Source of the DNA: a virus
DNA length: 64,000 bases
Virus record (IMG/VR): IMGVR_UViG_3300045988_070924
Coordinates: 1 to 64,000 of that record
Reading direction: 5' to 3' (one strand)
The position numbers and the translations under genes were made by a program. Below are positions 1,274 through 18,741 of this stretch, one piece after another. The number at the start of each line of letters is the position of its first letter. The stretch's first letter is position 1. The notes under the pieces are model-generated. The model worked only from the letters and a program-made list of their open reading frames with translations, ran no database searches and was not told the DNA's origin.

Positions 1274-1504
1274 TTACCACCTACTTGCAAAAGAAGTTTC
1301 TCCCACTCTATCCATTTCTTCTTGATACCTTCCACTATAAAACTCTTCTCTTGCCTTTTTAGCTGCCATTTCCTCTTCAGGAGTTCTTTGATGGTCTATA
1401 ACAAGTTCACCCTTAAAATTTCGAGTAATAAGGTTGGAATATACCTTCATGTTTTTTGGATACTTTGCTAATGCAGAAATTAGCTCTTCTACTGTTGTTA
1501 TCAT
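1274..1504 (-). CDS. hypothetical protein
   Basis: 76-aa ORF, co-oriented. Confidence 0.45.
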   Translation of the reverse strand: MITTVEELISALAKYPKNMKVYSNLITRNFKGELVIDHQRTPEEEMAAKKAREEFYSGRYQEEMDRVGETSFASRW

Positions 1505-1536
1505 ATTATTATATTATTAAAGTTTCTATTAAAAAA

Positions 1537-1661
1537 CTTCCCTGCTTGGACTCGAACCAAGGACCCTGAGATTACAAATCTGAAGTAACTGTAAATATCA
1601 CCACAATTAGGGAACATTCTTCACAGTTCTGTACATGCTCTACCAACTGAGCTACAGGGAA
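1537..1661 (-). tRNA. tRNA-Thr(UGU)-like gene with a 52-nt insertion (1584..1635) between the D arm and the anticodon arm; possibly a chimeric ncRNA or pseudogene
   Basis: Hand fold of the minus strand. Acceptor TTCCCTG/CAGGGAA, D arm GCTC-AGTTGGTA-GAGC, T arm CTTGG-TTCGAGT-CCAAG. Anticodon arm TCAGA-TTTGTAA-TCTCA with one C-C mismatch. Total length 125 nt. The insertion carries the E-family motif AGTTACTTCA. Confidence 0.55.
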
Positions 1662-1672
1662 GTTTAGATTGA

Positions 1673-1755
1673 AAGGCACTATGTAACAATCTTTAGAGTT
1701 CTATTGAAAACTAAGAAACAGTTGAAGTAACTCTAAATATCAACAATAGTGCCTT
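1673..1755 (-). ncRNA. E-family structured element, copy E2 (transcribed strand not established)
   Basis: Outer stem AAGGCACTAT/ATAGTGCCTT and inner stem TTTAGAGTT/AACTCTAAA. Conserved plus-strand motif TGAAGTAACT at 1723-1732. Conserved internal-loop bases. Confidence 0.5.
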
Positions 1756-1759
1756 ATAT

Positions 1760-1857
1760 AAGATATCATAAGAACATTTAGACAGAGGTGTTGTTATATG
1801 AGAGTCAAAAATTGCAAATTTGATGAAGTAACTCTGTCTGTCACTATACAATATCTT
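1760..1857 (-). ncRNA. E-family structured element, copy E3
   Basis: Outer stem AAGATAT/ATATCTT and inner stem AGACAGAG/CTCTGTCT. TGAAGTAACT at 1824-1833. Confidence 0.5.
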
Positions 1858-1864
1858 TATTTAG

Positions 1865-1950
1865 TACCAGAAATGAGACTTGAACTCACACGGGCATTGC
1901 TGCCCAAGGGATTTTAAGTCCCTCGTGTCTACCAATTCCACCATTCTGGC
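1865..1950 (-). tRNA. tRNA-Leu(UAA), class II
   Basis: Acceptor GCCAGAA/TTCTGGT, anticodon arm AGGGA-CTTAAAA-TCCCT, long variable arm, T loop TTCAAGT. Confidence 0.85.
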
Positions 1951-1959
1951 ATTTTAATG

Positions 1960-2033
1960 TAGGGAGTAAGGGACTTGAACCCTTAGTCTTGAGTGTATAA
2001 GACTCCTGCTTTCACCAATTAAGCTAACTCCCT
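1960..2033 (-). tRNA. tRNA-Ile(UAU)
   Basis: 74-nt cloverleaf. Acceptor AGGGAGT/ACTCCCT, anticodon loop CTTATAC, T arm AAGGG-TTCAAGT-CCCTT. Confidence 0.8.
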
Positions 2034-2092
2034 ATAAAACAGGTGTACTTCACAGCAGACCTGTCCATGTTCATCCTCTAAAAGAAGAATTG

Positions 2093-2164
2093 TACCCCCA
2101 GAAGGAATTGAACCCTCATTTAAAGAGTAGAAATCTTTTGTTCTATCCATTGAACTATAGGGGC
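2093..2164 (-). tRNA. tRNA-Arg(UCU)
   Basis: 72-nt cloverleaf. Acceptor GCCCCTA/TGGGGGT, anticodon arm AAAGA-TTTCTAC-TCTTT, T loop TTCAATT. Confidence 0.85.
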
Positions 2165-2192
2165 ATTGAGGCAGACTTGCTGCCTCTTTTCA

Positions 2193-2465
2193 CTATATCT
2201 CTATAGTGGTATCAAAATCATCCCAGTCTTCTTTTTCACTAACCTCGAACATCTCATCATCAATCTTGCTCCAGAAATCTCTACCTTCAGGGGTCTCCGC
2301 CCAAAAGAAAGCCTTATTAACAGTGCTAGGTGACTCTTTACCAAGAAGATAGTATAGTATCTGCTCTGGGGAGTTCATTGCTACTATACAGTTATTTATA
2401 AACTGAGGTAACCAAGGCTGCTTCAATATCCACTCAGATGCTTTCGGATTGACCTCTATTTCCAT
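2193..2465 (-). CDS. hypothetical acidic protein
   Basis: 90-aa ORF immediately downstream of the AAA+ gene in the same operon. Confidence 0.5.
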   Translation of the reverse strand: MEIEVNPKASEWILKQPWLPQFINNCIVAMNSPEQILYYLLGKESPSTVNKAFFWAETPEGRDFWSKIDDEMFEVSEKEDWDDFDTTIEI

Positions 2466-2476
2466 AATATGCCCTC

Positions 2477-3865
2477 CTATTTGCCTCTAAGAATCTGCTT
2501 GATTCCTTCAGCCATTATAGTCTGCATGCTCTGATAGAACTCCTTCTCAGGAGTCATGCTCATATCCTTCTTTCTTGAGAGGTTTACCTGTCTGTCATAA
2601 GCCTTGACAGCATTCTTGAGAATCTCATCAGTTACAAGATTGTTCTCTGCAAAGATAAGTTTACTCTTGATAGATTCAACTATCTCTGCCATGAATGCAG
2701 GTGCTATCTCCATCTTCTCTATAAGGTCGAGGGATTCTTTAAGTTCACCAACCTTATATCCATCTTTGAAGGACTCTTTGATGAATCTCAATGCTGTCTC
2801 CTTATCAAGGCAGTCCATAGTAATTACTGAACCAATTCTCTTTCCTCTGAGGAATGTAGGTTCAATAAGTTCTATGTGGTTGGTAGTGAACAAAGTAATG
2901 ACATTCATATCTTTGGTATCACCACCATCAAGAGTGTTCAGAATATCCTGAAGAGATGCATCTCTTTCTCCTCTTGTAACCTGGTCAATGTCCTCTACAA
3001 AGACTATCACTCCATTGCATGACCTGTCTATGATTTTCACCATCCTCAAGGTCTCTGCAAGAAGAGAAGGGTCCTTAAGATATACAAAAGTCCAATTGTT
3101 CTTGGTAGCCTCTCTTGCAAGTTTGAATGCAAGAAGGGTCTTTCCAGTACCATACTTCCCTTCAAACAGACATCCATACTTAAGAGGAATGCCTGCCTTG
3201 AGACATTTCTCAGGATACAGGATTCTTGACCTCAAAGGCTGAAGGTCAAACTCTGTCTGCTTTGACAAGACCATCAATTGACTATCTATATGGCTGAGGT
3301 TGAGTCTCTTAGGCTCTTTGCCTCTCTCTGTTATCTCAAGAGCCTGATTCTTGTAGATAGAGTTTGTAGCAAGGAGTTCCCTTGTCCTGTCCACGATATC
3401 ATCAATCATGGACTGATACTTAGACTTGCACACTCCTGTTATAACCAGTTCTGAAGTACTATTGGAGTAGTTCAACTCTATATAGGAATCACCACCAAGT
3501 TCAGGCAATGAAATCCTACCAAAAGGTACTTTTGTTCGTGAGCCATCAGCAAGGATAACATCAAAAGTATTGATATTACCAGAGCCTGAAGGACCTGCAT
3601 CTTTCTCAGCCCTTACTGAGCCAAATATCTCTTCAACAGCCTTGTTAAACTGGAATGCACCGTCAGTCTTCCAACATTTGATGTTGTAATTGAGAGATAC
3701 GTCCTGTTCAGACATTTCTATCTCATTCTTGATGAAGGCAAGAACTTCTGCATACTTCATGTCTGACTTACAGGCTGTAATGATACGCTCTTTTTGCTGC
3801 TGTTCAAAGAAATTTACTTTCTTCTTGAGCACATCCTTTGTGCTCTGGATAATTGTTTGTTCCAT
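2477..3865 (-). CDS. classic-clade AAA+ ATPase with an uncharacterised N-terminal domain
   Basis: Walker A GKYGTGKT, Walker B VIVFVEDID, and TNHIELIEPTFLRGKRIG (second region of homology). The ATG at 3865 is preferred over the track start at 3931, which would overlap the upstream ORF. An A-rich spacer precedes the ATG. Confidence 0.8.
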   Translation of the reverse strand: MEQTIIQSTKDVLKKKVNFFEQQQKERIITACKSDMKYAEVLAFIKNEIEMSEQDVSLNYNIKCWKTDGAFQFNKAVEEIFGSVRAEKDAGPSGSGNINTFDVILADGSRTKVPFGRISLPELGGDSYIELNYSNSTSELVITGVCKSKYQSMIDDIVDRTRELLATNSIYKNQALEITERGKEPKRLNLSHIDSQLMVLSKQTEFDLQPLRSRILYPEKCLKAGIPLKYGCLFEGKYGTGKTLLAFKLAREATKNNWTFVYLKDPSLLAETLRMVKIIDRSCNGVIVFVEDIDQVTRGERDASLQDILNTLDGGDTKDMNVITLFTTNHIELIEPTFLRGKRIGSVITMDCLDKETALRFIKESFKDGYKVGELKESLDLIEKMEIAPAFMAEIVESIKSKLIFAENNLVTDEILKNAVKAYDRQVNLSRKKDMSMTPEKEFYQSMQTIMAEGIKQILRGK

Positions 3866-3876
3866 TGTTTTTTTTT

Positions 3877-4122
3877 TTAATAAATACTTGTCAATATGTT
3901 CTTGGCATTTTCTATAGTTGTTGTTAAGCATCCAAACTCTATAATTTCACCACTTTTCCTTATGACCAGATTCTTCTGAGGTATGTTATATCTGTCCATG
4001 TCACCATAGACAGCCTCCTTAAGAAGGTCATAAGGAACAGCAGTGTTCTTACAGAATAGGATTCTTTTCTCAGGGACATAAATTACATCATATCCCTGAA
4101 TGTTTCCTACTGTTTGTCTCAT
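3877..4122 (-). CDS. hypothetical protein between the Ro60-like and AAA+ genes
   Basis: 81-aa ORF. Its start overlaps the stop of the upstream gene by 4 nt. Confidence 0.5.
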   Translation of the reverse strand: MRQTVGNIQGYDVIYVPEKRILFCKNTAVPYDLLKEAVYGDMDRYNIPQKNLVIRKSGEIIEFGCLTTTIENAKNILTSIY

Positions 4123-5528
4123 TCATCAAAAGTATTTTCAATACCTTCATATGCTGCTATGAATGTTAGGAAATTCTCTGAAAAGCCACTTATTTCAGCA
4201 TCCCAAGCACCCTTATAGTTCACACCATGCCTTTCAGATGATACATCACAGATGTAGTTGTGTTTTCCAAAAGGCTTTGGAACTCTCTTATCAGGATAGT
4301 CACAGTCCTGTGAGTCTGAGAATACAATTATTCTATCAAACTCTCCAGTAAACTGTTCTCTTGACCACTCAAGACACTGTCTTGTGAAGATTCCTCCACC
4401 TCCAACCCTACTATTTGCTTTATCTATCTGCTTGAGAAGGTTGAATCCCTTTGAAGGATATTTGATTACTTCTGATTTATGCTCTTTGGTATAGTCATTA
4501 CCAGCAGTTACTACCAACTCAAAGTCTTCACACTGGTTTGCAGCAAGCATAGCCATAGCCTTTGCAGCATCAAGCCTTGTGAGTTTAGACTTACTTGAGA
4601 TTGAAGCATACTTCATAGAACCAGAAGCATCAAGTATGAACAGAGTCCTACCAGGGACTTTAGGAAGATTAGACCATGAAGTTATCATAGCATCTTCTAT
4701 ATCCCTCTCAAACTCAGGATTCATTCTGGCTGCCTGCAAGAAGTTCATAGGCAATAGCATTGAAGCCTTAAGGTTTTCAAAGCCATATTTTATTACTTTC
4801 TTGTCTACATCTGCATCCCTCATGTTTCTCAGGTTTCTAAGGAATGCAAGACCTCCAATCTTATTCTCACTGATGAGTTTGGTCCATGTTTCCTTCTTGT
4901 CTTTTCCTGCTGAAAGCATGGTCTCCCAAGTTTCAGGTACAGGAAGAGTCCTTGAAGCAATCATCTTGAAGAGTTCTGCTTCCTTTTCATCCCAAGGTCT
5001 TGGGTGAACAAGAAACATTACATCTCTGAGTTTTATTGCAGCATCTCTGTCATACTTTGCAAACTTATAGGCATTGAAATTATGAAATGCTGCTGCAAGT
5101 CCTTTCTTTGCCTGATTAGCCAGTGACTTCTTTCCTCCTTTCCAATATATAGAAAGGAAGTCAGTCAGCATATCTGCCCTTGTTATAATCTTTGGTAGCA
5201 AGTCTCTTACAAATAGCCTATGTTCAGGGTACTTGCACATTCCAGATGCCAGAAACAAAGGTGTGTGCCTGAGTTTCTGTAGAGTTCTTGCTGCCAAAGC
5301 AACAGTATATACATCTTCTGCACTACATAGAGGTATGAGCCTTTCAATCTCTTCAGCAATCTTCTTGCCATCACAATAGGCAACATCTTCCCAAAGAAGA
5401 TTAGCCAAGGTGAGTCTTTTAAGAAGAGCAATGTTTGACTGCTTAGCAGCAAGAGCACCACTACCTCCAGCAAGTCTTTCATCTGTAAATTTAGATGTTG
5501 ACTTGATGTTTGGATTCAATTTAGACAT
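4119..5528 (-). CDS. rsr: Ro60/Rsr-like protein (TROVE domain plus vWA domain)
   Basis: The segments FAKYDRDAAIKLRDVMFLVHPRP, ETWTKLISENKIGGLAFLRNLRNM and LLPMNFLQAARM correspond, from memory, to the human Ro60 segments [44 protein letters not shown] and IHPFHILIALETY. The C-terminal vWA domain has the MIDAS motif LFILDASGSM. Confidence 0.85.
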   Translation of the reverse strand: MSKLNPNIKSTSKFTDERLAGGSGALAAKQSNIALLKRLTLANLLWEDVAYCDGKKIAEEIERLIPLCSAEDVYTVALAARTLQKLRHTPLFLASGMCKYPEHRLFVRDLLPKIITRADMLTDFLSIYWKGGKKSLANQAKKGLAAAFHNFNAYKFAKYDRDAAIKLRDVMFLVHPRPWDEKEAELFKMIASRTLPVPETWETMLSAGKDKKETWTKLISENKIGGLAFLRNLRNMRDADVDKKVIKYGFENLKASMLLPMNFLQAARMNPEFERDIEDAMITSWSNLPKVPGRTLFILDASGSMKYASISSKSKLTRLDAAKAMAMLAANQCEDFELVVTAGNDYTKEHKSEVIKYPSKGFNLLKQIDKANSRVGGGGIFTRQCLEWSREQFTGEFDRIIVFSDSQDCDYPDKRVPKPFGKHNYICDVSSERHGVNYKGAWDAEISGFSENFLTFIAAYEGIENTFDE

Positions 5529-7717: not shown

Positions 7718-8033
7718 CAGGATTGTGGTCCTCTACAGAACCTGTATACTCACCCTCATATACTGCCCCTGCTACATCCTCTAGTGCCTTCATCTTGTCA
7801 TAGTCACTATCTATAAGGTCACCATCTTTTACACCCTCATAGTCTTCAGGAACTATTGCATGATAGAGGTTTTCACTAGTGGAACCACATCCACACTTTG
7901 ATACATAGGTGAAGTTTATGACTTTCTTTCTGGTCTCAGGTATTTCCTGAGATTTTATGTTCTCAAACATCTCCTTGAGATTCTCCTCTTCCTGAGGTTC
8001 TTCTCTCTTTTTGAATAATTGTCCTATTCCCAT
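7698..8033 (-). CDS. hypothetical acidic protein
   Basis: 111-aa ORF. It overlaps both neighbours by a few codons, which suggests translational coupling. Confidence 0.5.
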   Translation of the reverse strand: MGIGQLFKKREEPQEEENLKEMFENIKSQEIPETRKKVINFTYVSKCGCGSTSENLYHAIVPEDYEGVKDGDLIDSDYDKMKALEDVAGAVYEGEYTGSVEDHNPDDYYGW

Positions 8034-9097
8034 GTCTTTATTATCTTAGTTAAGATAGATTCAGATAGTTCTCCATTTGCTTCTCTGATGATAGAGTAGG
8101 AAGCCTTGTCTACAATACCCTTTATAAGAGCACCAGACAATTTTCCATTGAATTGGCTGTATGCTTCCTTAGATATGCTTTTAGCCAGTTTATTAACATT
8201 TCCAGATACAGGTTTGCCCTTAAGATATATCTTGAAGATGTCTTCTGCATCCTCAACTGTAGGTCTTGAAATTTCAAGCCTAAGGTCAATTCTTCCTGGT
8301 CTGATGATTGCTGGGTCAAGAGCATCCTTGAAGTTGGTAGCAAGGATTATAAAAGTAGAATTACTTTCAAACCCATCAAGTTCACTCAAGAATGTAGGAA
8401 CAATGGTGAGGTCTACATCTGATGACCTTCTACTGCCCCTTGCATTAAGTACAGCTTCTGCTTCATCAATAAATATGACTGACCTCTGTTTCCTTACTCT
8501 GTAGTTCTGTCTTGCCCTTGAGAACATACTCTTAATATTATTCTCAGTTACACCAACATATGGACTGAGCATTTCTCCACCCTTCAAATAAATAAAAGAG
8601 TCTGGATTCAACTCAGTACCATTAAGGAATGCTGATGCAATAGCCTTGGCTACCATAGTTTTACCACATCCTGGAGGACCATAAAGAAGAACTCCTCTTG
8701 ATGGTTCAAGACCCATTCTCTTGAGATAGTCAGGATGTTTTATAGGCAATTCTATAGCATCTCTTATCTGTGAAATCTGACTCTTGAGACCTCCAATCTG
8801 CTCCCATTTGATATGTTCAAACTCTACAGGCTTGACAGGTTTCTCAAGTTCTTCTGGAAGAATACATATAATCATATTCTTGTTTACCATTACCTTGTCT
8901 CCTATCTTTGGGTTTTCATCGAGTTTAGGTGATTTAGGTATGATTACCTCATTACCATTTACTATAACTCTATACAACCCATTGTGCTGAGAGATGACAA
9001 CACTTTCCATGTAAGGTCCTTCTATGACCATCTCAAGTAGTTTTTCATACTCTGAGATTTTATCTCTCAAAGCATCAATTTCTTCCTGATAACTCAT
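8024..9097 (-). CDS. PAN/ARC/Rpt-like AAA+ unfoldase (coiled coil + OB domain + AAA)
   Basis: N-terminal heptad-like MSYQEEIDALRDKISEYEKLLEMV, then an OB-like YRVIVNGNEVIIPKSPKLDENPKIGDKVMVNKNMIICILP. Walker A GPPGCGKT, Walker B VIFIDEAEAV, and ATNFKDALDPAIIRPGRIDLRLEISRP. Confidence 0.8.
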   Translation of the reverse strand: MSYQEEIDALRDKISEYEKLLEMVIEGPYMESVVISQHNGLYRVIVNGNEVIIPKSPKLDENPKIGDKVMVNKNMIICILPEELEKPVKPVEFEHIKWEQIGGLKSQISQIRDAIELPIKHPDYLKRMGLEPSRGVLLYGPPGCGKTMVAKAIASAFLNGTELNPDSFIYLKGGEMLSPYVGVTENNIKSMFSRARQNYRVRKQRSVIFIDEAEAVLNARGSRRSSDVDLTIVPTFLSELDGFESNSTFIILATNFKDALDPAIIRPGRIDLRLEISRPTVEDAEDIFKIYLKGKPVSGNVNKLAKSISKEAYSQFNGKLSGALIKGIVDKASYSIIREANGELSESILTKIIKTWE

Positions 9098-9940: not shown

Positions 9941-10035
9941 AAAGGGCTATGCAACAGTTTGTGGAGTATAATTAAGTACCCAAAAACTTATTTCATTATC
10001 AGTGAAGTAACTCCACTATTCAGCAATAGCCCTTT
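9941..10035 (-). ncRNA. E-family structured element, copy E4
   Basis: Outer stem AAAGGGCTAT/ATAGCCCTTT and inner stem GTGGAGT/ACTCCAC. TGAAGTAACT at 10003-10012. Lies immediately 3' of ORF 10050..10820. Confidence 0.5.
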
Positions 10036-10866: not shown

Positions 10867-10949
10867 AGAGAGGCTATGTAATAAGCTGTAAAGTGTTTTT
10901 CATAATACCCTAAATTGAAGTAACTTTACAAATCAACAATAACCTCTCT
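10867..10949 (-). ncRNA. E-family structured element, copy E5
   Basis: Outer stem AGAGAGG/CCTCTCT and inner stem TGTAAAGT/ACTTTACA. TGAAGTAACT at 10916-10925. Lies immediately 3' of the small ORF 10957..11097. Confidence 0.5.
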
Positions 10950-18285: not shown

Positions 18286-18358
18286 GCCTTCTTAGCACAA
18301 CTGGTGGTGCAGCTGATTTGTAATCAGCAGGTTATAGGTTCAAATCCTATAGAAGGCT
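18286..18358 (+). tRNA. tRNA-Thr(UGU), canonical
   Basis: Acceptor GCCTTCT/AGAAGGC, D arm GCAC-AACTGGTG-GTGC, anticodon arm GCTGA-TTTGTAA-TCAGC. Confidence 0.85.
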
Positions 18359-18557
18359 CAAGGTGTCAGTAAATCAGACTGCAAGCTGAGACAGGCTGAA
18401 ACTCCTTAGTAATAATTGCAGCTACATAGTAGATTACATGAAGGAGGGTGCTGGAGAAGAAGGTAGACCAGTTCAAGAGAAGTACCAATAGATAAGACAC
18501 CTGTGGTGATGCAGGGAGTCCCTCTCAGAGGATAAAGTCACACAAAGCTTCTCAAAT
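18359..18557 (+). other. 199-nt non-coding spacer inside the tRNA array (candidate ncRNA or decayed tRNA)
   Basis: No ORF longer than 17 codons. Long-range pairing AGGTGTC (18361) with GACACCT (18496). Local hairpins CTGG...CCAG and CCTC-TCA-GAGG. Confidence 0.25.
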
Positions 18558-18639: not shown

Positions 18640-18722
18640 TGCGGGGTGTCAGAAGTTGGTATCTGGGGAGTCTCATAAGCTCCTGCTTTTTAGCCTCGGG
18701 GGTTCGAGTCCCCCTCCCGCAA
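18640..18722 (+). tRNA. atypical tRNA with a CAU anticodon and a 14-nt variable region
   Basis: Acceptor TGCGGGG/TCCCGCA, D arm CAGA-AGTTGGTA-TCTG, anticodon arm GGAGT-CTCATAA-GCTCC, extra TGCTTTTTAGCCTC, T arm GGGGG-TTCGAGT-CCCCC. Confidence 0.6.
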
Positions 18723-18741
18723 CTGATTAATATTCAATATT

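What the first reader, a model, noticed from the sequence alone, without database searches (positions are those of the whole stretch)
1537..1661. tRNA-Thr(UGU)-like gene with a 52-nt insertion at the D-arm/anticodon-arm junction that can pair with its own anticodon loop
On the minus strand the acceptor stem, D arm (GCTC-AGTTGGTA-GAGC), T arm (CTTGG-TTCGAGT-CCAAG), variable loop and anticodon loop (TTTGTAA) are all tRNA-like. However, 52 nt (1584..1635) are inserted between position 26 and the anticodon stem. That is not the canonical 37/38 intron site, and the insert is far too short for a group I intron.

The insert contains the 5' half of the E-family element: ATTGTGGTGATATTTACAGTTACTTCA, compared with E2 ATTGTTGATATTTAGAGTTACTTCA. 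Its TTACA (plus coordinates 1590-1594) is complementary to TGTAA, the anticodon plus A37 A38 (plus coordinates 1572-1576). Its CCCT can also pair with AGGG in the variable loop. An E-like fold and the cloverleaf are therefore mutually exclusive alternatives.

A canonical tRNA-Thr(UGU) exists at 18286..18358, so this copy is free to do something else. It might be a tRNA-like scaffold fused to an E module, reminiscent of the tRNA-like domain of bacterial YrlA Y RNAs. It might equally be a decoy, or an inactivated gene.
Basis: partly seen in the sequence, partly recalled or inferred. Interest (0 to 1): 0.75.

Follow-up and report, generated by a model that had tools for sequence, protein, structure and literature searches.

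The report
tRNA-shaped Y RNA of a crAss-like phage
The interrupted tRNA-Thr look-alike is real and conserved, and is most likely a Y-type noncoding RNA: a tRNA-shaped body carrying a docking hairpin for the phage's own Ro60 protein, part of an unannotated RNA family also present in the model gut phage crAss001.

Summary
Confirmed: window 1661..1537 (minus strand) has a full acceptor stem, D arm, T arm and a UGU anticodon hairpin, interrupted by 52 nt.

Comparison across six phage lineages places the insert between nt 28 and 29 (window 1633..1582). It splits the 5' strand of the anticodon stem. It is not at the 26/27 junction.

The insert is a complete, circularly permuted E module, not half of one. 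The module reads: helix, bulged U, 2 covarying bp, UG/GUU internal loop, stem 2, UACUUC. It folds independently of the cloverleaf.

A Ro60 (TROVE+vWA) gene lies 2.5 kb upstream on the same strand (5528..4119). E modules follow or precede Ro60 genes on the same strand in many phage lineages, with Ro60 identity down to about 34%. One such array sits in an unannotated 0.9-kb gap after gp96 of crAss001. The Ro60-less relative IAS virus has none.

In distant lineages the same module closes RNAs with YrlA topology, and Rfam's YrlA model hits these significantly but below its threshold.

Best reading: a non-permuted, tRNA-topology relative of YrlA Y RNAs. Ro60 binding is inferred, not shown. Pseudogene and intron readings are poorly supported. 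It is a new variant of a known kind.

The parts
1537..1661 (-). Whole chimeric RNA gene (125 nt): a tRNA cloverleaf scaffold with a 52-nt E module inserted in the anticodon stem. No CCA is encoded, and a T run follows.
1655..1661 (-). Acceptor stem, 5' strand, TTCCCTG (U1-A72 at the end of the stem).
   Evidence: 7/7 pairs. Six different compensated acceptor stems occur across lineages.
1637..1652 (-). D arm GCTC-AGTTGGTA-GAGC, with A14, G18 and G19.
   Evidence: the stem is invariant in all class-1 chimeras.
1634..1635 (-). nt 27-28 (TG), the outer 2 bp of the anticodon stem. They pair with CA at 1568-1567.
   Evidence: the pairs are TG/CA, CG/CG, GG/CT, AA/TT and GT/AC across lineages.
1582..1633 (-). 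52-nt insert, a circularly permuted E module plus a 5' linker (TACAGA, 1633-1628).
   Evidence: The linker varies in sequence and length among close relatives.
1620..1627 (-). E stem 2, first strand, ACTGTGAA. It pairs with 1595-1588.
   Evidence: (G.U becomes A-U in L003)
1611..1619 (-). Box C, GAATGTTCC. The final CC pairs with the GG of box A.
   Evidence: the 2-bp rule shows GG/CC, GT/AC, GC/GC and AG/CT.
1604..1610 (-). Minimal stem 1, CTAATTG (one C-G pair capped by TAATT). It replaces the 6-11-bp stem 1 of the standalone E RNAs.
   Evidence: The identical core AATGTTCCCTAATTGTGGTG occurs in L044/L045 on a different tRNA body.
1596..1603 (-). Box A, TGGTGATA: bulged U, then GG (2 bp), then UGA. 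This is the proposed Ro60 contact strand (compare GNCGAA of YrlA).
   Evidence: motif from PMC4201824
1588..1595 (-). E stem 2, second strand, TTTACAGT.
1582..1587 (-). Box B, TACTTC, the invariant 3' junction of every E module. Together with the preceding T it reads UUAC, which fits YUAY.
   Evidence: YUAY
1569..1581 (-). Inner anticodon stem AGA/TCT with the 7-nt loop TTTGTAA. The anticodon TGT is at 1576-1574.
1567..1568 (-). nt 42-43 (CA), the partners of nt 27-28.
1545..1561 (-). T arm CTTGG-TTCGAGT-CCAAG.
   Evidence: seven compensated T stems occur across lineages.
1537..1544 (-). Acceptor stem, 3' strand, CAGGGAA, plus discriminator G73.
1673..1755 (-). E2, a standalone E RNA: stem 1 AAGGCACTA/TAGTGCCTT, box A TTGTTGA, box C TTGTTAC.
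   Evidence: (compensated stem 1 changes in L002/L003)
1762..1855 (-). E1, a standalone E RNA of the TAGTGA/TGTTCT type.
   Evidence: The junction between E1 and E2 mimics a permuted module.
9941..10035 (-). Standalone E RNA between two ORFs, upstream of Ro60.
10867..10949 (-). Standalone E RNA between two ORFs.
4119..5528 (-). Ro60 ortholog (TROVE + vWA, 469 aa), the proposed protein partner.
   Evidence: Pfam TROVE 1e-12, vWA_Ro60; PDB 9l5y/9kop, phage phiLo Ro60, E 8e-15, residues 24-416; 67% identical to crAss001 gp96

Best explanation
This is a gene for a chimeric noncoding RNA of the Y-RNA type, not a decoding tRNA and not a pseudogene.

Anatomy:
- A normal tRNA cloverleaf is kept: acceptor stem with free ends, D arm, T arm, and an anticodon hairpin with a UGU loop.
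- It carries a 46-nt protein-docking hairpin (the E module) plus a 6-nt linker, inserted between nt 28 and 29 of the anticodon stem.
- The E module reads: helix, single bulged U, 2 bp, asymmetric internal loop (5' UGA.. / 3' ..GUU), stem 2, then UACUUC.
- It is the same module that forms the closing stem of the standalone E RNAs in this phage.
- In more distant phages it forms the closing stem of RNAs with YrlA topology.

Proposed mechanism:
1. The RNA is transcribed with the phage's Ro60 operon.
2. Its tRNA body lets host RNase P, 3' trimming and the CCA-adding enzyme cut it out of the tRNA / E RNA array and stabilise it.
3. The E module binds the phage Ro60 ring.
4. The L-shaped tRNA body then serves as the effector module, as in YrlA. 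It either tethers Ro60 to a tRNA-recognising factor or RNA-decay/repair machinery, or gates Ro60.

Shown here: the structure, its conservation and covariation, family membership, and genomic linkage to Ro60.

Inferred: Ro60 binding, processing, and the effector function.
For: 1. The anatomy is conserved. Three close relatives keep the chimera. Substitutions and indels fall in the 5' linker, the stem-1 cap and the E2 apical loop. The tRNA body and E core change only in ways that preserve pairing.

2. Six lineages of the same chimera type have different but fully compensated acceptor and T stems. Their nt 27-28 covary with nt 42-43.

3. E is a real structured family.
- A descriptor finds 76 modules in 720 kb, against 0-2 in dinucleotide shuffles.
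- The 2-bp rule holds in every standalone E that was found without imposing that rule.
- Model R1, built from other lineages, hits window 1627-1582 at E 4.5e-4.
- On the alignment of R1 hits, 90.5% of cells pair, against 25-52% when partners are slid by 1-3 columns.

4. E modules are linked to Ro60.
- A TROVE+vWA gene lies 2.5 kb upstream on the same strand.
- E arrays start 20-200 nt after the Ro60 stop codon in L039-L045, L051, L054, L074, L075, L077 and L079. They lie just upstream of Ro60 in L046, L081, L084, L086 and L087, where Ro60 identity is only 33-40%.
- In the complete crAss001 genome, all modules sit in the unannotated gap after TROVE gp96.
- IAS virus belongs to the same subfamily and lacks Ro60. 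It has no R1 hit and only one descriptor hit, inside a coding gene, which I judged spurious.

5. There is a bridge to YrlA.
- In L081, L084, L086 and L087 the E module closes an RNA ordered stem / T arm / closed acceptor stem-loop / D arm / stem.
- Rfam's YrlA model hits these RNAs at 31-42 bits, E 3.6e-6 to 6.5e-3.
- Box A in these RNAs reads GGUGAAG or GGCGUAG, against YrlA's GNCGAAN0-1G.
- UUAC of box B matches YrlA's conserved YUAY.
- Same strand and within 4 kb of Ro60 is the published criterion for YrlA candidates.

6. E and tRNA are joined in three different topologies: in the anticodon stem, in the D loop, and wrapped around a whole tRNA. This fits selection for physical linkage of the two modules rather than for an intron.

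7. It does not look like a decoding tRNA.
- Sibling lineages have non-canonical anticodon loops (crAss001 9 nt, L044/L045 5 nt).
- The body is only 67% identical to the phage's own tRNA-Thr.
- It has U1-A72, U2-A71 and G73. The real tRNA-Thr has G1-C72 and C2-G71, which are E. coli ThrRS identity elements (from my own knowledge).
Against: - There is no experimental or direct computational evidence that Ro60 binds the E module. The link rests on genomic association and on architectural similarity.
- Neither Rfam YrlA nor Y_RNA gives any hit in window 1400-2200, even at E<=10.
- Box A in this window (UGGUGAUA) lacks the CGAA core.
- In the jumbo-phage contigs the chimeras sit in tRNA arrays far from Ro60, up to about 220 kb away in the 435-kb contig. 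Three chimera-bearing contig fragments could not be checked for Ro60.
- The perfectly canonical 7-nt UGU loop here, and the CUUUUAA loops in two other lineages, show some constraint on the anticodon arm that this model does not explain.
- The folding z-score of the whole RNA is modest (-1.89).
- R1 E-values come from a shortened calibration.
Confidence: 0.7

Rival explanations
1. It is a functional tRNA-Thr(UGU) gene. Its E module is an intervening sequence of a new kind, either removed by cleavage and ligation or tolerated in the mature tRNA. The standalone E RNAs would then be unrelated uses of the same hairpin.
For: - All four arms are intact, and the loop is a canonical U33-UGU-A37A38.
- Deleting the insert in silico gives an ARAGORN tRNA-Thr.
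- Other lineages keep canonical Lys(UUU) or Ile(GAU) loops with identical anticodon arms.
- crAss001 encodes a polynucleotide kinase and IAS virus an RNA ligase.
Against: - No bacterial enzyme is known that removes such inserts, and there is no bulge-helix-bulge geometry. The 5' linker varies from 6 to 11 nt among close relatives.
- Fifty-two nt is far too short for a group I intron, and Rfam reports none.
- The same module occurs standalone, in D loops, and wrapped around a tRNA.
- Sibling chimeras have 5-nt or 9-nt 'anticodon' loops.
- U1-A72, U2-A71 and G73 do not fit Thr identity (from my own knowledge).
- A canonical tRNA-Thr(UGU) already exists at 18286-18359.
Confidence: 0.1
2. The E module is a docking or processing signal for some other factor, such as the phage RNA polymerase (termination or antitermination), an RNase, or a different phage protein. 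On this view its closeness to Ro60 reflects only shared membership in the early operon.
For: - Standalone E RNAs lie between protein-coding genes and are followed by T runs.
- The TROVE gene belongs to the early operon of crAss001.
- In jumbo phages the modules are not next to Ro60.
- There is no CGAA motif in the AT-rich lineages.
Against: - The association with Ro60 holds across Ro60 lineages that are only 33-40% identical and of very different G+C content. The modules lie immediately upstream or downstream on the same strand.
- The Ro60-less relative IAS virus has the same genome plan but no modules.
- In distant lineages the module occupies the position of YrlA's Ro60-binding stem.
Confidence: 0.13
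3. It is a tRNA-Thr pseudogene that was inactivated by insertion of a repeated or mobile E element and is now decaying.
For: - tRNA finders do not call it.
- A canonical copy exists elsewhere in the window.
- E elements are repeated in the genome.
Against: - The tRNA body is nearly invariant in four genomes, while the neighbouring loops and linkers vary.
- The changes that do occur preserve pairing (A29G gives G.U; stem 2 G.U becomes A-U).
- Six lineages with different bodies keep the same insertion site, with compensated stems.
- The body is not a recent copy of the phage's tRNA-Thr (67% identity).
Confidence: 0.03

Closest known systems
YrlA (Rfam RF02553), the bacterial and phage tRNA-like Y RNAs bound by Rsr/Ro60 (Chen et al. 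2014, PMC4201824; Wang et al. 2018, bioRxiv 10.1101/312249)
   Same: - It is encoded within 4 kb of a Ro60 gene on the same strand.
- It is modular: a protein-docking bulged stem plus a tRNA-like L-shaped module with canonical D and T arms.
- It has a YUAY-type motif (UUAC) after the stem that leads to the docking site.
- Distant members of the same E family have exact YrlA topology and give significant YrlA hits.
   Different: - The topology is that of a real tRNA. The acceptor stem has free 5' and 3' ends, so RNase P processing and CCA addition are conceivable. The docking module is a capped hairpin branching from the anticodon stem.
- YrlA instead has a loop-closed acceptor stem, with the RNA ends in the Ro stem.
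- This RNA keeps a complete anticodon hairpin.
- The docking strand reads UGGUGAUA, not GNCGAAN0-1G.
- There is no Rfam hit in the window.
Yrl1/Yrl2 of Thermus phage phiLo and Yrn1 of Deinococcus radiodurans, stem-bulge-stem Y RNAs that bind Ro60 and PNPase (PMC12135203; PMC4201824)
   Same: - They are phage-encoded (Yrl1/2) small RNAs next to a phage Ro60 gene.
- They have a closing stem interrupted by a conserved bulge or internal loop, like the standalone E RNAs here.
- The window's Ro60 is a sequence homolog of the solved phiLo Ro60.
   Different: - Those RNAs carry the CGAA motif and have no full tRNA cloverleaf.
- The present RNA is a tRNA with the module inserted.
Circularly permuted and intron-split tRNA genes of algae and archaea, including non-canonical intron positions
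   Same: - tRNA sequence is interrupted or rearranged at non-37/38 positions.
- The window RNA relates to YrlA-topology members by circular permutation.
   Different: - Those are precursors of decoding tRNAs, processed by the BHB-specific splicing endonuclease and a ligase.
- Here there is no BHB, the host is bacterial (Bacteroides-type), and the inserted sequence is a conserved protein-docking module that also exists on its own.
Metazoan Y RNAs (Rfam RF00019)
   Same: The docking site has the same architecture: helix, single bulged pyrimidine on the 5' strand, 2 bp, internal loop, upper stem. The bulged C9 is the primary Ro60 site (PMC4030889).
   Different: - There is no sequence similarity detectable by Rfam.
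- The bulged base is U, not C.
- The loop module of metazoan Y RNAs is not a tRNA.

Membership tests
Canonical tRNA (RF00005) | 7-bp acceptor stem, D arm with A14/G18G19, and T arm with a TTCRA loop | tested here: met
   all three are present and perfectly paired.
Canonical tRNA (RF00005) | Contiguous 5-bp anticodon stem with a 7-nt loop | tested here: not met
   The stem's 5' strand is split by 52 nt between nt 28 and 29. The loop itself is canonical.
Canonical tRNA (RF00005) | Called by tRNA detectors at their standard thresholds | tested here: not met
   ARAGORN makes no call. Rfam gives no hit at its gathering score, only 22.4 bits (<29) for a partial alignment.
Canonical tRNA (RF00005) | Threonine identity (G1-C72, C2-G71 in E. 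coli; from my own knowledge) and aminoacylation | not testable with these tools
   The sequence shows U1-A72, U2-A71 and G73, whereas the window's canonical tRNA-Thr has G1-C72 and C2-G71. Charging needs an experiment.
Bacterial tRNA group I intron | Insert in the anticodon loop, about 200 nt or more, with a group I core | tested here: not met
   The insert is 52 nt and lies in the stem. Rfam reports no intron family at E<=10.
Archaeal/eukaryal BHB tRNA intron | Bulge-helix-bulge at both exon-intron junctions | tested here: not met
   The junctions are unpaired linkers (TACAGA and TACTTC) with no helix between them. The 5' linker length varies from 6 to 11 nt in close relatives.
YrlA / bacterial Y RNA (RF02553) | Encoded within about 4 kb of a Ro60/TROVE gene on the same strand | tested here: met
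   Ro60 is at 5528-4119(-) and the RNA at 1661-1537(-), 2.46 kb downstream.
YrlA / bacterial Y RNA (RF02553) | tRNA-like module with conserved D and T arms | tested here: met
YrlA / bacterial Y RNA (RF02553) | 5' and 3' ends pair to form the Ro60-binding stem, and the acceptor stem is closed by a loop | tested here: not met
   The ends are in the acceptor stem and the docking module is a capped hairpin. Distant E-family members do have the YrlA arrangement.
YrlA / bacterial Y RNA (RF02553) | GNCGAAN0-1G motif in the 5' strand of the stem | tested here: not met
   Box A is UGGUGAUA (GGUGAU). Relatives read GGUGAAG or GGCGUAG.
YrlA / bacterial Y RNA (RF02553) | Conserved YUAY after the stem leading to the tRNA-like module | tested here: met
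   UUAC at 1588-1585, invariant in the family.
YrlA / bacterial Y RNA (RF02553) | Score at or above the Rfam gathering threshold (69 bits) | tested here: not met
   There is no hit in window 1400-2200 at E<=10. YrlA-topology relatives score 27-42 bits.
YrlA / bacterial Y RNA (RF02553) | Physical binding to Ro60 | not testable with these tools
   This needs RIP/CLIP or a gel-shift assay.
E-module / tRNA chimeras of Ro60-encoding phages (family defined here) | Permuted E core in the order stem 2', box C (..GUUYY), capped stem 1, box A (U-xy-UG), stem 2, UACUUC, with xy pairing to the last 2 nt of box C | tested here: met
   Descriptor hit at 1627-1582. Model R1, built without this lineage, scores 30.6 bits, E 4.5e-4.
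E-module / tRNA chimeras of Ro60-encoding phages (family defined here) | Insertion between nt 28 and 29, with nt 27-28 pairing to nt 42-43 | tested here: met
   TG/CA in the window; five pair combinations across lineages.

The most novel reading that the evidence does not exclude
These chimeras would be Y RNAs that are still genuine tRNA-topology molecules.

- They would be cut out by RNase P, given a CCA end, and perhaps even charged.
- The phage Ro60 would thereby be tethered to whatever recognises a particular anticodon arm (Thr-UGU here; Lys-UUU and Ile-GAU in other lineages).
- Candidate targets are host anticodon nucleases or other tRNA-directed defences, or the tRNA repair and decay machinery.

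They would also be a living intermediate in Y RNA evolution. On this view YrlA-type Y RNAs arose when a Ro60-binding hairpin was inserted into a tRNA and the RNA was later circularly permuted. The published proposal instead derives them from a dimeric tRNA precursor.
Probability: 0.25. Interest if true: 0.8.

Novelty: new variant of a known kind. Interest (0 to 1): 0.62.

Why it matters
- Ro60 and its Y RNAs are conserved from bacteria to humans, yet what the tRNA-like module of bacterial Y RNAs does, and how it arose, is still open.
- This window shows the module in a new form. A true tRNA-topology RNA carries the docking hairpin as an insertion, and sister forms carry it in the D loop or wrapped around a tRNA.
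- These forms occur in crAss-like phages, a very abundant group of human-gut viruses, and in jumbo gut phages.
- An equivalent chimera, with a different tRNA body, sits unannotated next to the early TROVE gene gp96 of the culturable model phage crAss001. The binding partner, processing, charging and infection phenotype can therefore be tested directly.
- For annotation, these genes are missed by tRNA finders and by Rfam. Where they are partly detected they could be misread as odd tRNAs; ARAGORN called parts of them tRNA-His, tRNA-Ile or tRNA-Ser.

Tried and rejected
- ARAGORN with intron search gives tRNA-Cys(ACA) with a 37-nt intron, an 8-bp acceptor stem and a long unpaired variable region. 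Rejected: the geometry is non-canonical and has no comparative support.
- Rfam's partial tRNA hit at 1610-1537 (22.4 bits) uses the second TTCCCT copy as an acceptor strand. Rejected: the same AATGTTCCCTAATTGTGGTG core occurs in L044/L045 with an unrelated acceptor stem.
Complementarity between that strand and the anticodon region is only 3-6 nt, in AU-rich sequence, and varies across lineages. Stem 2 covaries instead.
- E motif as a promoter or a known ribozyme. Rfam gives no hit at E<=10, and the covarying stems argue for an RNA structure.
- blastn of the region against GenBank phages found only tRNA-level similarity. E RNAs diverge too fast for blastn.
- The Ro60 loci of Ralstonia phage RsoM2USA and Microcystis phage Mvi-JY20 gave neither an E module nor a convincing YrlA hit.
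- I tried to confirm Ro60 in the contigs of L004, L009 and L027. These are fragments with the tRNA array at a contig end, and no Ro60 was found in them. Inconclusive.
- The Annual Review on bacterial Ro60 (PMC10870794) is not held in the library.
- Library searches found no paper linking crAss-like phages to Y RNAs. This is absence within that library only.
Full report
**1. The observation**

Read on the minus strand, window 1661..1537 is:

TTCCCTG-TA-GCTC-AGTTGGTA-GAGC-A-TG-[52 nt]-AGA-TTTGTAA-TCT-CA-GGGTC-CTTGG-TTCGAGT-CCAAG-CAGGGAA-G

- The acceptor stem, D arm, T arm, variable loop and 7-nt UGU loop are all canonical.
- ARAGORN (default mode) and Rfam at its gathering score do not call it.
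- Rfam in E-value mode gives only a 22.4-bit partial tRNA match to 1610-1537.
- Deleting the insert in silico gives an ARAGORN tRNA-Thr(UGU).
- The canonical tRNA-Thr(UGU) at 18286-18359 exists. It is only 67% identical to the spliced body, so the element is not a recent duplicate.
- The similarity to the neighbouring E2 element is real: the 19-mer differs at 1 position, with 4 matches against 0.1 expected.

**2. Where the insert really sits**

Three ~103-kb IMG/VR contigs carry the same chimera. Further chimeras of the same design were found in five other lineages, including Bacteroides phage crAss001.

- The two nucleotides that follow A26 always pair with the two that precede the variable loop: TG/CA, CG/CG, GG/CT, AA/TT, GT/AC.
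- The insert therefore lies between nt 28 and 29 (window 1633-1582).
- The anticodon stem is then a perfect 2+3 bp helix, with no C.C mismatch.
- Acceptor stems (six different sequences) and T stems (seven) are fully compensated. The D stem GCTC/GAGC and A26 are invariant.

**3. What the insert is**

The window holds four standalone E RNAs on the same strand: 1855-1762, 1755-1673, 10949-10867 and 10035-9941.

Their plan is: stem 1 / box A / stem 2 / UACUUC(A) / variable loop / stem 2' / box C / stem 1'.

- Box A begins with a U that has no partner.
- Its next two bases pair with the last two bases of box C: GG/CC, GU/AC, GC/GC, AG/CU.
- This rule holds in every standalone E that was found by a search which did not require it.
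- Then comes a conserved internal loop, 5' UG(A).. opposite ..GUU.

The window's insert contains all of this in circularly permuted order:
- linker TACAGA
- stem 2' ACTGTGAA
- box C GAATGTTCC
- a minimal capped stem 1, CTAATTG
- box A TGGTGATA
- stem 2 TTTACAGT
- box B TACTTC

Statistical support:
- A descriptor for both topologies finds 76 modules in 720 kb of collected loci, against 0-2 in dinucleotide shuffles.
- Covariance model R1 was built from 14 permuted cores of other lineages. It hits 1627-1582(-) full length at 30.6 bits, E=4.5e-4 over the whole window.
- On the alignment of 44 R1 hits, 90.5% of cells pair, against 25-52% when partners are slid by 1-3 columns. Some register noise remains in the 2-bp helix.

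RNAfold's unconstrained minimum-energy structure keeps the acceptor, D and T arms and folds the insert as its own hairpin. The E fold and the cloverleaf therefore coexist.

Among the four close relatives, variation is confined to the linker, the stem-1 cap (a 4-nt duplication in L001) and the E2 apical loop. A29G and the stem-2 G-to-A change preserve or improve pairing. E2's stem 1 shows a G-C to G.U to A-U series. This is purifying selection, not decay.

**4. The protein partner suggested by context**

ORF 5528-4119(-) is a Ro60 ortholog.
- Pfam TROVE scores 1e-12, and the Ro60 vWA domain is also matched, at 4.5e-4 and below Pfam's cutoff.
- phmmer matches the solved Ro60 of Thermus phage phiLo over residues 24-416, E 8e-15.
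- It is 67% identical to TROVE gp96 of crAss001.

The window is thus a crAss-like phage (Steigviridae-like). The chimera lies 2.46 kb downstream of Ro60 on the same strand. This is inside the '4 kb, same strand' rule by which YrlA Y RNAs were originally catalogued.

**5. Linkage of E modules to Ro60 elsewhere**

- Twenty Ro60 loci were fetched with the window's protein. In the nine full-length crAss-like loci at 64-69% identity, box B elements begin directly after the Ro60 stop codon, on the same strand, as arrays of standalone E RNAs plus tRNA chimeras.
- In the complete crAss001 genome, all modules lie in the 0.9-kb gap between gp96 and gp95, where RefSeq annotates nothing. They comprise three standalone E RNAs, one anticodon-stem chimera that Rfam scores as tRNA at 46.6 bits with an 82-nt insert, and one further chimera (acceptor stem and T arm present, D-arm region degenerate) that I group with the D-loop class.
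- IAS virus, of the same subfamily, has no TROVE gene. It has no R1 hit and only one descriptor hit, inside a coding gene, which I judged spurious.
- A second Ro60 query brought in lineages down to 33-40% identity and much higher G+C. There too, box B elements flank Ro60 on the same strand.
- In jumbo-phage contigs the chimeras sit in large tRNA arrays, away from Ro60. The two contigs long enough to judge do encode Ro60.

**6. Bridge to YrlA**

In L081, L084, L086 and L087 the E module closes an RNA with this order:

stem 1 / box A / stem 2 / UACUUC / short hairpin / variable loop / T arm / loop-closed 4-8-bp acceptor stem / D arm / stem 2' / box C / stem 1'

- This is the YrlA order.
- Rfam's YrlA model hits these RNAs at 30.8-42.1 bits, E 3.6e-6 to 6.5e-3. 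That is below the 69-bit threshold but significant.
- Box A there reads UGGUGAAG or UGGCGUAG, against YrlA's GNCGAAN0-1G.
- The UUAC of box B fits YrlA's conserved YUAY kink.
- The bulged pyrimidine followed by 2 bp and an internal loop mirrors the bulged-C9 Ro60 site of animal Y RNAs.

I therefore read the E module as this phage clade's version of the Ro60-binding stem together with the 'anticodon-stem' segment of YrlA.

**7. Three ways of joining E to a tRNA**

- Class 1: inserted at nt 28|29 of the anticodon stem. This is the window's form.
- Class 2: inserted in the D loop, for example L054 9602-9728 with a CAU loop and L009 8134-8263, which Rfam scores as tRNA at 45.4 bits with a 59-nt D-loop insert.
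- Class 3: wrapped around a complete tRNA-His(GUG) cloverleaf in L002 9660-9524 (tRNA 47.6 bits).
- In addition, the permuted YrlA form described in section 6.

What is conserved is the physical linkage of a tRNA-shaped module to an E module, not any one junction. This favours a two-module ribonucleoprotein scaffold over an intron.

**8. Is it a decoding tRNA?**

Probably not.
- Sibling chimeras with the same E core have 5-nt (L044/L045) or 9-nt (crAss001) loops.
- Close homologs differ in 'anticodon' (UUU versus GAU in L027).
- This one has U1-A72, U2-A71 and G73. The phage's real tRNA-Thr has G1-C72 and C2-G71. That these are Thr identity elements is from my own knowledge.
- A 52-nt branch on the anticodon stem should clash with the ribosome (inference).

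Still, the canonical 7-nt loops in three lineages are unexplained. They leave room for recognition of the anticodon arm by some factor.

**9. Mechanism proposed**

1. The RNA is transcribed with the Ro60 operon. TROVE is an early gene in crAss001.
2. It is released from the tRNA-Leu / E1 / E2 / chimera array by tRNA-processing enzymes.
3. The E module docks on Ro60.
4. The tRNA body acts as the effector or gating module, as proposed for YrlA.

Structure, conservation, membership and linkage are shown. Binding, processing and function are inferred. Confidence 0.7.

**10. Rivals**

- A real tRNA with a new kind of intervening sequence: 0.10.
- The E module serves another factor or acts in cis: 0.13.
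- A pseudogene: 0.03.

**11. Novelty**

Phage Ro60 genes and adjacent Y-like RNAs are known from mycobacteriophages, CcrColossus, Bacillus phage G and phiLo. The crAss001 TROVE gene is annotated.

I found no paper in the held library that links crAss-like phages to Y RNAs. The loci are unannotated in RefSeq, and neither Rfam nor ARAGORN recognises them.

The new points are:
- the AT-rich docking motif;
- the non-permuted tRNA topology with free acceptor ends;
- the multiplicity of graft sites.

This is a new variant of a known kind.

Noticed in passing
L056 5015-5740 (= NC_049977.1, about 95,965-96,870, minus strand): In the model phage crAss001, the 0.9-kb gap after TROVE gp96 has no annotation. 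It holds three standalone E RNAs, one anticodon-stem chimera (Rfam tRNA 46.6 bits with an 82-nt insert) and one further chimera, with a degenerate D-arm region, that I group with the D-loop class.
   Followed up: yes
L002 9524-9660 (minus strand): A complete tRNA-His(GUG) cloverleaf (Rfam 47.6 bits) is nested in the apical loop of a standalone E RNA. Box B runs straight into the acceptor stem. This is a third way of joining E to a tRNA, and it replaces E1 of the window.
   Followed up: partly
L054 9602-9728; L036 14864-14991; L009 8134-8263; L004 5165-5302: A second class of chimera has the E module inserted in the D loop of otherwise complete cloverleaves, with CAU, GAU, GUU or GUC-like loops. 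The window's close relatives have one about 5.5 kb downstream of Ro60, which would lie beyond the start of this window.
   Followed up: partly
L084 2770-2905; L086 about 2760-2920; L081 about 2735-2880; L087 about 2600-2890: In GC-rich phage lineages with Ro60 only 33-40% identical, RNAs with E-module stems and YrlA topology (loop-closed acceptor stem) lie directly upstream of Ro60. They give sub-threshold but significant Rfam YrlA hits.
   Followed up: partly
window 1724-1788 (minus strand): The junction of the tandem E1 and E2 RNAs mimics a permuted E module and is hit by model R1 (28.6 bits). This artefact should be expected in tandem arrays.
   Followed up: yes
window 2477-3931 and 8024-9097 (minus strand): Two AAA+ ATPase genes flank the Ro60 gene region. 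One lies between Ro60 and the RNA array. Their function is unknown.
   Followed up: no
window 18640-18723 (+): ARAGORN calls an 84-nt tRNA-Met(CAU) with an unusually long variable region. Rfam does not report it at its gathering score.
   Followed up: no
L077 5067-5127 (+): A Pistol ribozyme (57.9 bits, above the 34.5-bit gathering score) lies a few hundred nt downstream of a Ro60 / E-RNA array.
   Followed up: no
L079 4992-5080 (+): There is a tRNA-Sec-like hit (55.3 bits, gathering score 47) in the tRNA cluster after a Ro60 gene.
   Followed up: no
L004 2343-2416; L027 6556-6627: The jumbo-phage tRNA arrays that hold the Lys(UUU)-type chimeras also carry CUA-anticodon (amber suppressor) tRNAs. 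This suggests stop-codon recoding in those phages.
   Followed up: no
L062 19915-20349 (crAss001 gp61); L060 22458-23186 (IAS virus gp44): RNA-end repair genes are annotated in these crAss-like genomes: a polynucleotide kinase in crAss001 and an RNA ligase in IAS virus. They could be relevant to tRNA repair or to any cleavage-ligation of the chimeras.
   Followed up: no
L039 9661-9796 versus L004 4306-4444: Two unrelated chimera lineages (acceptor GGGGATA versus TGCCATT) share an identical anticodon arm, CG|AGC-CTTTTAA-GCT|CG. This points to transfer between lineages or to selection on a tRNA-Lys(UUU)-like arm.
   Followed up: no
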